DNA of 64,000 bases, from the NCBI RefSeq assembly GCF_029227855.1, contig NZ_CP074356.1. One strand, 5' to 3'. Positions 41,901 through 44,900 of this stretch are shown in pieces. Position 1 is the first letter of the stretch; every line of letters starts with the position of its first letter. The position numbers were made by a program. This stretch comes from Escherichia coli (lineage in GTDB: Bacteria; Pseudomonadota; Gammaproteobacteria; Enterobacterales; Enterobacteriaceae).

Positions 41901-44900
41901 TTATTCACAGCAACTCTCCAGGCCGCCGATGTCACTATCACTGTTAATGGTCGGGTAGTCGCTAAACCCTGCACTATTCAAACCAAAGAAGCTAACGTTA
42001 ATCTCGGGGATCTTTATACGCGCAATCTGCAACAACCTGGTTCTGCATCAGGCTGGCACAATATTACTTTGTCATTAACCGATTGTCCGGTTGAAACAAG
42101 TGCAGTGACGGCAATCGTGACAGGTTCAACTGACAATACGGGTTATTACAAAAATGAAGGTACTGCCGAAAATATTCAGATAGAGCTAAGGGATGACCAG
42201 GATGCGACGTTAAAAAATGGCGATAGCAAAACGGTTATTGTTGATGAGATCACTCGTAATGCACAGTTTCCACTTAAGGCAAGAGCTATCACGGTGAATG
42301 GAAACGCAAGCCAGGGAACGATCGAGGCGCTAATCAATGTGATCTACACCTGGCAATAACGTCGATTCGATTTTCTTAGCCTCTTTTTAAATCAATTTTT
42401 TAACCTTAGGATATATCATGGGTAAAACAATAAGTATGAAGCTTCTGTTCGGTATTTATCTTCTATTAATGGCAGGCAAAGTTTTTGCCTTCAGTTGTAA
42501 TGTCGATGGCGGGTCAAGTATTGGAGCAGGTACAACCTCTGTTTATGTTAATCTCGACCCTGTAATACAACCGGGCCAGAATCTGGTTGTAGACTTGTCT
42601 CAGCATATAAGTTGCTGGAATGATTATGGCGGCTGGTACGACACTGATCATATAAACCTGGTACAAGGCTCAGCTTTCGCAGGCTCTCTACAGTCATATA
42701 AAGGATCGCTGTACTGGAATAATGTGACCTACCCCTTCCCGTTGACGACAAATACTAATGTATTAGATATTGGTGATAAGACACCGATGCCATTACCGTT
42801 AAAACTCTATATTACCCCAGTCGGTGCGGCCGGTGGAGTTGTCATAAAAGCCGGGGAAGTTATTGCCCGTATTCATATGTATAAAATTGCCACGTTAGGA
42901 AGCGGAAATCCGCGTAATTTTACGTGGAATATTATTTCAAATAACAGTGTTGTTATGCCAACAGGCGGTTGCACCGTTGATAGTCGTAATGTCACCGTGA
43001 ATCTCCCGGACTTTCCTGGAAGCGCAGAAATACCCCTTAGTGTATATTGCTCTAGCGAACAAAAGCTCTCATTTTATCTTTCGGGTGCCACCACTGACAG
43101 TGCCCGACAAGTGTTTGCTAACACAGCACCAGATGCAACAAAAGCATCGGGCGTGGGTGTCTCTCTGATGCGTAATGGAAAAACACTGGCAACAGGAGAA
43201 AATGTCTCCCTGGGGACAGTAAATAAAAGCAAAGTACCTCTTGGTTTAAGCGCAACCTATGGACAAACAGGAAACAAGGTTGCAGCCGGAACCGTCCAGT
43301 CAGTCATTGGTGTCACTTTTATCTATGAATAATTGTGATTTTGACATTGGTCTATGCGCTCCATTCACGAAAATTGCGCGGAAAATTATTTTGTGAAGGC
43401 TATTATCCTACATCTGTAAGAAAATCCGCGCACAATTGAAGCCAGAGTCTTATTTTTTATATTGAAAAATATGTTAATTTAAACACTATGAGAGATGATG
43501 CTTAATTTATCGTATTTAATCTTTTGTTTAACGATAATAGATTAAAATAGAAAGAGAGTAGTCCCCTACTCTTATATATCCATGTTGACGATAATCCCTT
43601 TGTATATACTGTGCATCATCGCTATTACAAATCCTAATAATTCATTTCCACACAGGATAAGCAGATGAAGAAAAAAATTGAATCCTACCAGGGAGCTGCC
43701 GGTGGTTGGGGTGCTGTTAAATCCGTAGCGAATGCAGTACGTAAGCAGATGGATATACGCCAGGATGTTATTGCCATGTTTGACATGAATAAGCCAGAGG
43801 GCTTTGACTGTCCGGGTTGTGCATGGCCAGATCCTAAGCACAGTGCGTCATTCGACATTTGTGAAAACGGCGCAAAAGCAATCGCCTGGGAAGTCACGGA
43901 TAAGCAGGTAAACGCCTCTTTCTTTGCTGAGAATACGGTTCAATCATTACTTACCTGGGGAGACCACGAGCTTGAGGCTGCGGGGCATCTCACCCAGCCT
44001 TTGAAATATGATGCCGTCAGCGACTGTTACAAGCCATTAAGCTGGCAACAAGCTTTCGACGAAATTGGCGAACGCCTTCAAAGCTATAGTGATCCCAATC
44101 AGGTTGAATTCTATACTTCGGGCCGCACTTCCAATGAAGCTGCCTTTCTTTATCAGCTTTTTGCCCGTGAATACGGGAGCAATAACTTCCCCGACTGCTC
44201 CAACATGTGCCATGAACCGACCAGTGTGGGTTTGGCAACGAGTATCGGTGTAGGTAAAGGGACCGTGTTGCTGGAAGACTTTGAGAAATGCGATTTAGTC
44301 ATTTGCATTGGGCATAACCCTGGTACAAACCACCCTCGCATGTTGACTTCGTTGCGCGCTTTAGTGAAACGGGGAGCGAAAATGATCGCCATCAATCCTC
44401 TACAGGAACGTGGCCTGGAGCGATTTACCGCACCGCAAAACCCGTTTGAAATGCTGACGAACTCTGAGACTCAGTTGGCCAGTGCCTACTATAACGTGCG
44501 CATTGGTGGTGATATGGCGTTGCTCAAGGGGATGATGCGCCTGTTAATTGAGCGCGATGATGCTGCAAGCGCCGCAGGTCGGCCCTCATTGCTGGATGAC
44601 GAATTTATTCAAACGCATACCGTCGGCTTTGACGAGCTACGCCGTGACGTGCTCAATTCCGAGTGGAAAGATATCGAACGTATTTCTGGATTAAGTCAGA
44701 CTCAAATCGCCGAACTGGCTGATGCATATGCCGCTGCCGAACGCACCATTATCTGTTACGGAATGGGGATCACTCAGCACGAACATGGTACCCAGAATGT
44801 ACAGCAACTGGTCAATCTGCTGTTGATGAAAGGTAACATTGGCAAGCCTGGTGCGGGTATCTGCCCACTACGAGGTCACTCTAATGTACAGGGCGACCGA

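What the first reader, a model, noticed from the sequence alone, without database searches (positions are those of the whole stretch)
43405..43422. EvgA box upstream of ydeP
ATCCTACA-TC-TGTAAGAA matches the EvgA 18-bp inverted-repeat consensus with one mismatch, consistent with ydeP being a direct EvgAS target in acid resistance.
Basis: partly seen in the sequence, partly recalled or inferred. Interest (0 to 1): 0.25.

Follow-up and report, generated by a model that had tools for sequence, protein, structure and literature searches.

The report
Known EvgA activator site before ydeP

Summary
Window 43405-43422 reads ATCCTACATCTGTAAGAA, one mismatch from TTCYTACANNTGTARGAA. It is the only hit with one mismatch or fewer in 64 kb, where 0.00 are expected by chance. 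The window is an E. coli chromosome: ydeQ, then a 332-bp spacer, then ydeP, safA and ydeO.

The site is the positional orthologue of the K-12 ydeP upstream repeat (AGCCTACACCTGTAAGAA). The same pattern hits the upstream regions of all six known direct EvgA targets in K-12. The box is centred about 74.5 bp upstream of the implied ydeP transcription start at 43488. An extended -10 element (TGtTAATTT) lies in between, and there is no recognisable -35.

Across ten E. coli haplotypes only box position 2 and the two spacer bases vary. In a divergent Escherichia lineage, conservation begins abruptly at the box. ydeP homologues outside Escherichia have no box.

Papers I could read say ydeP is directly EvgA-activated and that EvgA binds inverted repeats at its direct targets. 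The two primary binding papers were not readable here.

Verdict: already known, low interest.

Side notes:
- The strain's box is closer to consensus than K-12's.
- A second box lies upstream of safA (46063-46080).
- The ydeP and safA promoters are about 100-bp paralogous cassettes.

The parts
43405..43422 (+). EvgA box of the ydeP promoter: half-sites ATCCTACA and TGTAAGAA (inverted) separated by the 2-bp spacer TC. Centre is about -74.5 from the implied transcription start.
   Evidence: Sequence. Only match with one mismatch or fewer in the window, 0.00 expected. Orthologous to the K-12 site. The 14 core positions are invariant in 10 E. coli haplotypes.
43423..43471 (+). Spacer between the box and the -10 element. 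It has no recognisable -35 hexamer but is almost invariant within E. coli and shared with the safA promoter (AAnTCCGCnCA...TGAAGC..CAGTCyTATTT).
   Evidence: 85% identity to a divergent Escherichia lineage, against 49% upstream of the box. No further EvgA half-site of 4 bits or more.
43472..43480 (+). Predicted extended -10 element TGtTAATTT of the ydeP promoter.
   Evidence: Read directly from the sequence. It aligns with TGtTATATT of the safA promoter at the same distance from the box. It ends 8 nt before the implied start. Inferred, not mapped here.
43488..43488 (+). Implied ydeP transcription start (A), giving a 177-nt 5' leader in this strain (178 nt in K-12).
   Evidence: PMC11210196 used -178 to +10 relative to the ATG as the ydeP 5' leader. 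I transferred that position through the K-12 alignment. Inferred.
43665..45944 (+). ydeP coding sequence (759 aa), the regulated gene.
   Evidence: ORF list; RefSeq annotation of the identical locus.
46063..46080 (+). Second EvgA box, CGCCTACAGCTGTAAGAA, upstream of safA-ydeO. It has the same spacing to its own extended -10 element (TGtTATATT, 46130-46138).

Best explanation
The 18-bp inverted repeat at 43405-43422 is the EvgA operator of the ydeP promoter. At mildly acidic pH the sensor kinase EvgS phosphorylates EvgA, a NarL/FixJ-family response regulator. A dimer then binds the two inverted half-sites (ATCCTACA and TGTAAGAA, 2-bp spacer) centred about 74.5 bp upstream of the ydeP start. From there it activates a sigma-70 promoter that has an extended -10 element (TGtTAATTT) and no usable -35. 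The likely route is recruitment of RNA polymerase from an upstream (class I-like) position, together with relief of H-NS silencing of this AT-rich region. The result is the 177-nt-leader ydeP mRNA. A sister box with identical geometry drives safA-ydeO 2.66 kb downstream, so one signal turns on both the effector (YdeP) and the next regulators in the cascade. What is shown here: the sequence match, its rarity, positional orthology with K-12, the conservation pattern and the species distribution. What comes from papers read here: EvgA-dependence and directness of ydeP regulation, H-NS binding, and leader length. What is inferred: the exact start and -10 element, the class I-like mechanism and the anti-silencing role.
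For: - Only match with one mismatch or fewer in 64 kb, 0.00 expected.
- Lies in the ydeQ-ydeP intergenic region of an E. coli chromosome.
- Aligns base for base with the K-12 upstream repeat.
- The same pattern marks all six upstream regions of K-12 direct EvgA targets.
- In 10 E. coli haplotypes the only variable box positions are position 2 and the two unspecified spacer bases. That is the pattern expected for a dimer site.
- In a divergent Escherichia lineage (ydeP third-codon identity 70%) identity is 49% upstream of the box, 16/18 in the box and 85% from the box to the start.
- ydeP homologues in Edwardsiella, Yersinia rohdei, Raoultella and Tatumella have no box (best match 6-7 mismatches) and no upstream similarity.
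- Literature: ydeP is directly EvgA-regulated and strongly induced by activated EvgA. EvgA binds inverted repeats and the ydeP promoter. H-NS binds the ydeP promoter.
- The leader length puts the box centre at -74.5, and an extended -10 sits at the expected place.
Against: - No binding experiment can be done here, and the primary footprint and gel-shift papers could not be read.
- The consensus string came from memory, although it was validated against K-12 targets in-session.
- The transcription start is implied by a probe design in one paper, not by a mapping result that I read.
- RcsB is also required for ydeP induction and its binding site is unknown, so EvgA may not act alone.
- The strong conservation of the 50 bp between the box and the -10 element is not explained by an 18-bp site.
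Confidence: 0.93

Rival explanations
1. The repeat, or its right half plus the conserved flank (TAAGAAAATCCGC), is bound mainly by another FixJ/NarL-family protein such as RcsB, alone or paired with EvgA or GadE. EvgA dependence would then be partly indirect or cooperative.
For: RcsB loss abolishes acid induction of ydeP, as EvgA loss does (PMC7174508). The hexamer TAAGAA/TTCTTA of the EvgA half-site resembles the RcsB-box half-site (my own knowledge). The flank AAnTCCGC is conserved in both the ydeP and safA promoters.
Against: The arrangement is the reverse of an RcsB box. By my reading of the sequence, the spacing in TAAGAAAATCC is one base short of the RcsB pattern TN(G/A)GAN4TC(T/C)NA as I recall it. 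The same 18-bp pattern is shared by all EvgA-direct promoters. Papers describe ydeP as directly EvgA-regulated and its promoter as EvgA-bound.
Confidence: 0.05
2. The match is a chance palindrome, or a structural element of the upstream fimbrial transcript. It sits inside a possible stem formed by TGCGCGGA (43375-43382) and TCCGCGCA (43425-43432). It would then not be a protein-binding site.
For: The 8-bp perfect GC-rich inverted repeat brackets the box. The 71-nt stretch folds better than shuffles as RNA (z -3.1). It lies 43 nt after the ydeQ stop.
Against: 0.00 chance matches are expected. The box arms themselves cannot form a hairpin because the loop would be only 2 nt. No T-run follows the outer stem, and the terminator scan found nothing on the + strand there. 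By my rough estimate an 8-bp inverted repeat within 120 bp is expected about 0.7 times in a region this size. The sister safA box has no such bracket. The variation pattern fits a dimer site.
Confidence: 0.02

Closest known systems
EvgA binding site of the E. coli K-12 ydeP promoter. This is the 18-bp inverted repeat of Masuda & Church 2003, called the 'EvgA box' by Itou et al. 2009. Both papers are recalled from memory and were not readable here.
   Same: Same genomic position (ydeQ-ydeP spacer, about 260 bp before the ATG), same 14 core bases CCTACA..TGTAAGAA, same downstream promoter.
   Different: K-12 has AGCCTACACCTGTAAGAA (two mismatches). This strain has ATCCTACATCTGTAAGAA (one mismatch). 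They differ at box position 2 (T here, G in K-12) and at the first spacer base. Counts of records carrying each exact 63-mer: 381 for this allele, 1742 for the K-12 allele, and 461 and 1377 for two other spacer variants.
EvgA box of the safA(b1500)-ydeO promoter
   Same: Same right half-site (TGTAAGAA), same distance to an extended -10 element, and 51/82 identical bases downstream of the box without gaps (background 21 +/- 4).
   Different: The left half-site is weaker (CGCCTACA). The -10 element is closer to consensus (TATATT). It drives regulators rather than an enzyme.
BvgA sites of Bordetella virulence promoters. BvgA is the closest well-studied homologue of EvgA (my own knowledge).
   Same: Inverted TTC(C/T)TA-type heptads bound by a phosphorylated FixJ/NarL-family dimer far upstream of the promoter.
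   Different: BvgA promoters use a primary site plus a chain of low-affinity sites that reach the -35 region. Here no secondary half-site of 4 bits or more was found between the box and the -10 element, so such a chain is not supported by sequence.

Membership tests
EvgA box (EvgA operator of direct EvgAS regulon promoters) | 18-bp inverted repeat matching TTCYTACANNTGTARGAA as closely as accepted sites do (0-3 mismatches in K-12 targets) | tested here: met
   One mismatch. K-12 target sites show 0-3 mismatches.
EvgA box (EvgA operator of direct EvgAS regulon promoters) | Lies in the non-coding region upstream of an EvgA-activated gene, upstream of its promoter | tested here: met
   In the ydeQ-ydeP spacer. 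Centre about -74.5 from the start implied by the 178-nt K-12 leader. ydeP is EvgA-activated according to papers.
EvgA box (EvgA operator of direct EvgAS regulon promoters) | Positional orthology with the experimentally studied K-12 site | tested here: met
   Gap-free alignment across the box and promoter with K-12 MG1655. 16/18 identical in the box, and one of the two differences is a spacer base.
EvgA box (EvgA operator of direct EvgAS regulon promoters) | Selective constraint on half-site bases but not on the 2-bp spacer | tested here: met
   In 10 haplotypes both spacer positions vary, while only 1 of 16 specified positions varies. In the divergent lineage the box is 16/18 identical, against 49% for the upstream flank.
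EvgA box (EvgA operator of direct EvgAS regulon promoters) | Physical binding by EvgA~P (footprint, gel shift or ChIP) at these bases | not testable with these tools
   Secondary sources say EvgA binds the ydeP promoter and inverted repeats. The primary papers are not held.
EvgA box (EvgA operator of direct EvgAS regulon promoters) | Mutation of the repeat reduces EvgA-dependent ydeP expression | not testable with these tools
   I recall this being reported for K-12 by Masuda & Church 2003.
RcsB box | TN(G/A)GA-N4-TC(T/C)NA arrangement (recalled from memory) | tested here: not met
   By inspection of the sequence, TAAGAAAATCCGCG has only 3 bases between the GA and TC blocks, and the distal half does not match.
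Intrinsic terminator of the ydeQ operon | GC-rich hairpin with a 3-8 nt loop followed by a T-run on the + strand | tested here: not met
   The scan found none on the + strand in 43300-43700.

The most novel reading that the evidence does not exclude
The functional unit may be larger than the 18-bp box. It could be a cassette of about 100 bp (box, invariant 50-bp spacer with AAnTCCGCnCA...TGAAGC...CAGTCyTATTT, extended -10 element, start) that was duplicated to build both the ydeP and safA promoters. The conserved spacer could carry further contacts not captured by the published box, for example extra low-specificity EvgA dimers as at BvgA promoters, RcsB, or the RNA polymerase alpha subunits. 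Separately, the common T/G polymorphism at box position 2 could tune acid induction of ydeP between E. coli lineages. The G allele, as in K-12, is in about a third of genomes.
Probability: 0.3. Interest if true: 0.3.

Novelty: already known. Interest (0 to 1): 0.1.

Why it matters
It matters little beyond correct annotation. The site links ydeP, an oxidoreductase needed for acid survival without added glutamate, to the EvgS/EvgA acid-sensing relay, and that link has been in the literature for over twenty years. The modest added value is threefold. First, this strain's box is one step closer to consensus than the K-12 reference, and the T/G difference is a common natural polymorphism. Second, the window holds both EvgA-driven promoters of the cascade. 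Third, their shared 100-bp architecture gives a defined target for anyone dissecting how EvgA activates from about -74.

Tried and rejected
- **Primary papers.** I tried to read Masuda & Church 2002 and 2003, Ma et al. 2004 and Itou et al. 2009. None is held. Full-text searches for 'EvgA box', 'EvgA-binding' and the motif strings found nothing useful.
- **Secondary EvgA half-sites.** I looked for a BvgA-like chain between the box and the -10 element, using a half-site matrix built from six K-12 sites. None scored 4 bits or more, so this idea stays speculative.
- **A shared cassette across all EvgA promoters.** Only ydeP-safA is clearly significant (z 8.7). emrK-evgA reaches z 4.6. ydeP-yegR shares an 11-mer, TTTAAACACTA, near the start, but is not significant (z 2.1).
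- **gadE locus.** The only pattern hit lies inside mdtE coding sequence and is at chance level. I did not count it as a site.
- **Generic promoter scan.** It proposed TTGAAG/TATATT at 43436-43463. This was no better than shuffles (1 found against 2.3 expected) and does not fit the reported leader length, so I rejected it.
- **Terminator or hairpin reading of the repeat.** Rejected.
- **Rfam scan of the spacer and leader.** No match.
- **RcsB-box reading.** Spacing and distal half do not fit.

Full report
**What is there.** Against TTCYTACANNTGTARGAA this is one mismatch, A for T at position 1. It is the only match with one mismatch or fewer on either strand of the 64-kb window, and 100 dinucleotide-preserving shuffles produced none. 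Allowing two mismatches adds one more site, CGCCTACAGCTGTAAGAA at 46063-46080, against 0.10 expected.

**Context.** The window is an E. coli chromosome. A 601-bp stretch around the site is 100% identical to strain CFSAN018748 and is present in 5,330 of 5,426 complete E. coli genomes. The annotated gene order is fimbrial genes ydeS, ydeR, ydeQ, then ydeP, safA, ydeO, ydeN. The box lies in the 332-bp ydeQ-ydeP spacer, 260 bp before the ydeP ATG at 43665. The second box lies in the ydeP-safA spacer.

**Is the consensus right?** I supplied the consensus from memory, so I checked it in-session against K-12 MG1655. With up to three mismatches it hits these sites:
- the emrK/evgA divergent spacer (TTCTTACGCCTGTAGGAT);
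- upstream of frc/yfdW (TTCTTACAACTGTAAGAA, a perfect match);
- upstream of yfdX (two sites);
- upstream of yegR (TTCCTACATAAGTAGGAA);
- upstream of safA and of ydeP.

Chance expectation was 0.03-0.23 per locus. These are the operons that the literature calls direct EvgA targets. The only hit in the gadE locus lies inside mdtE coding sequence and is at chance level.

**Orthology with the studied site.** The ydeQ-ydeP spacer aligns with K-12 without gaps through the box and promoter. K-12 reads AGCCTACACCTGTAAGAA. The strain in the window therefore differs at box position 2 (T, matching the consensus, where K-12 has G) and at the first spacer base. Its box is closer to consensus than the reference.

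[quoted passage not shown] Transferred through the alignment, the start is the A at window 43488. A TGtTAATTT extended -10 element lies at 43472-43480. No -35-like hexamer is present at the usual spacing, which is expected for an activator-dependent promoter. The box centre is then about -74.5.

The safA promoter has the same layout: a box, then TGtTATATT at 46130-46138 at the same distance. Downstream of the boxes the two promoters are 51/82 identical without gaps. The background over all window offsets is 21 +/- 4, and the next-best score on either strand is 42. Local-alignment z is 8.7. The similarity starts at the box and fades about 10-15 nt past the predicted start. The start, the -10 element and the geometry are inferences; I read no mapping experiment.

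**Conservation within E. coli.** In ten haplotypes of the spacer (93.5-100% identity), the only variable positions inside the 18 bp are position 2 (G only in K-12 in this sample) and the two spacer bases (TC, CC, CT). The 14 bases CCTACA..TGTAAGAA are invariant. Counts of records carrying each exact 63-mer centred on the box are:

| Allele (position 2, spacer) | Records |
|---|---|
| T, TC (this window) | 381 |
| G, CC (K-12) | 1742 |
| T, CC | 461 |
| T, CT | 1377 |

All matching records (5,110-5,318, depending on the query) are at least 95% identical to the query.

**Conservation beyond E. coli.** A divergent Escherichia genome (L015) has YdeP at 95% amino-acid identity and ydeP third-codon identity of 70%. 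Its identity to the window is:
- 49%, with indels, upstream of the box;
- 16/18 in the box;
- 85% from the box to the start;
- about 76% in the leader.

Its safA box differs from the window's only in the spacer. Closer YdeP relatives outside Escherichia are Edwardsiella (84%), Yersinia rohdei (67%), and Raoultella and Tatumella (56-57%). None has a box (best match 6-7 mismatches) and none has upstream similarity. The element therefore behaves as a constrained, lineage-specific regulatory site.

**Literature read here.**
[quoted passage not shown] RcsB is also required for its induction (PMC7174508).
- EvgA binds inverted repeats at yfdX and yfdW, citing Masuda & Church 2003 (PMC3720670).
- H-NS binds the ydeP promoter fragment preferentially (PMC2984483).

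The primary binding papers were not available. From memory, Masuda & Church 2003 found the 18-bp repeat with AlignACE, showed gel shifts, and showed that mutating the ydeP and b1500 repeats reduced induction. Also from memory, Itou et al. 2009 did footprints and coined 'EvgA box'. None of this was verified here.

**Mechanism.** The most likely sequence of events is as follows. EvgS senses mild acid and phosphorylates EvgA. An EvgA dimer occupies the two half-sites at about -74.5. It then helps RNA polymerase onto a promoter with an extended -10 and no -35, and it probably also counteracts H-NS bound to this AT-rich spacer. ydeP mRNA with a 177-nt leader is produced. The sister box does the same for safA-ydeO. 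The binding partner and its direct role rest on the literature. The class I-like contact and the anti-silencing role are inferences.

**Rivals.**
- A chance match is excluded by the statistics and the conservation pattern.
- A hairpin or terminator reading fails. The box arms would leave a 2-nt loop, no T-run follows, and the scan found no + strand terminator.
- An outer 8-bp GC-rich inverted repeat (43375-43382 / 43425-43432) brackets the box and folds well as RNA (z -3.1). A repeat of that size is roughly expected by chance, and the safA promoter lacks it.
- An RcsB-site reading does not fit the RcsB-box spacing, though RcsB's role at this promoter remains unplaced.

**Comparison and novelty.** This is the known EvgA site of ydeP, in an allele one base closer to consensus than K-12. 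Every defining feature that can be tested by sequence is met. Binding and mutational effects cannot be tested here. Verdict: already known, low interest.

**Least ordinary reading still open.** The unit under selection may be the whole cassette of about 100 bp, duplicated between ydeP and safA, with an unexplained invariant 50-bp spacer. I found no secondary EvgA half-sites there.

Noticed in passing
window 46063-46158 compared with 43405-43500: The safA-ydeO promoter carries a second EvgA box. It is a gap-free paralogue of the ydeP promoter for about 100 bp: 51/82 identical downstream of the box, with the same box-to-(-10) spacing. The similarity starts at the box and ends just past the predicted start. 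This suggests a duplicated promoter cassette.
   Followed up: yes
window 43423-43471: The 50 bp between the box and the -10 element are almost invariant in E. coli and 85% conserved in a divergent Escherichia lineage. Yet they contain no -35 hexamer and no further EvgA half-site of 4 bits or more. A TC(C/T)TAT-like block at about -40 to -35 recurs in several EvgA promoters (alignment A3). Its function is unexplained.
   Followed up: partly
window 43406 and 43413-43414: Common natural polymorphism in the box: T or G at position 2, and TC, CC or CT in the spacer. Exact 63-mer counts are 381 (this allele), 1742 (K-12 G allele), 461 and 1377. About 1,350 further records carry other variants that I did not resolve. 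Whether T versus G changes EvgA affinity is untested.
   Followed up: partly
window 43375-43382 and 43425-43432: A perfect 8-bp GC-rich inverted repeat (TGCGCGGA / TCCGCGCA) brackets the EvgA box. The 71-nt stretch folds better than shuffles as RNA (z -3.1). In the divergent lineage the right arm changes C to T, still G-U compatible, and 12 bp are inserted in the loop. It may be chance or a 3' structure of the ydeQ transcript.
   Followed up: partly
window 43488-43664 (ydeP 5' leader): The long 177-nt leader has a predicted long-range stem (about 43491-43502 with 43612-43623) and a hairpin at 43555-43572. The arms are invariant even in the divergent lineage, while the sequence between them varies. 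Fold z is -2.6 and there is no Rfam match. There is no covariation to test, because the arms never vary. This may be a regulatory leader.
   Followed up: partly
L016, L017, L019 (Edwardsiella), L018 (Yersinia rohdei): The closest YdeP relatives outside Escherichia are in Edwardsiella (84% amino-acid identity). Their upstream DNA is GC-rich and unrelated, with no EvgA box. In the genome-collection scan the only Escherichia-labelled hit was one divergent Escherichia genome (L015). Two further contigs were near-identical to E. coli: L014, labelled as a 'Candidatus Nanosynbacter' MAG and very likely contamination, and L052, an uncultured-bacterium contig. The patchy distribution hints at horizontal transfer of ydeP.
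   Followed up: no
L003 5416-5629 (K-12 emrK-evgA spacer): The sequences on either side of the shared emrK/evgA box resemble each other more than chance (local-alignment z 4.6). This hints at a symmetric divergent promoter pair around one EvgA site.
   Followed up: no
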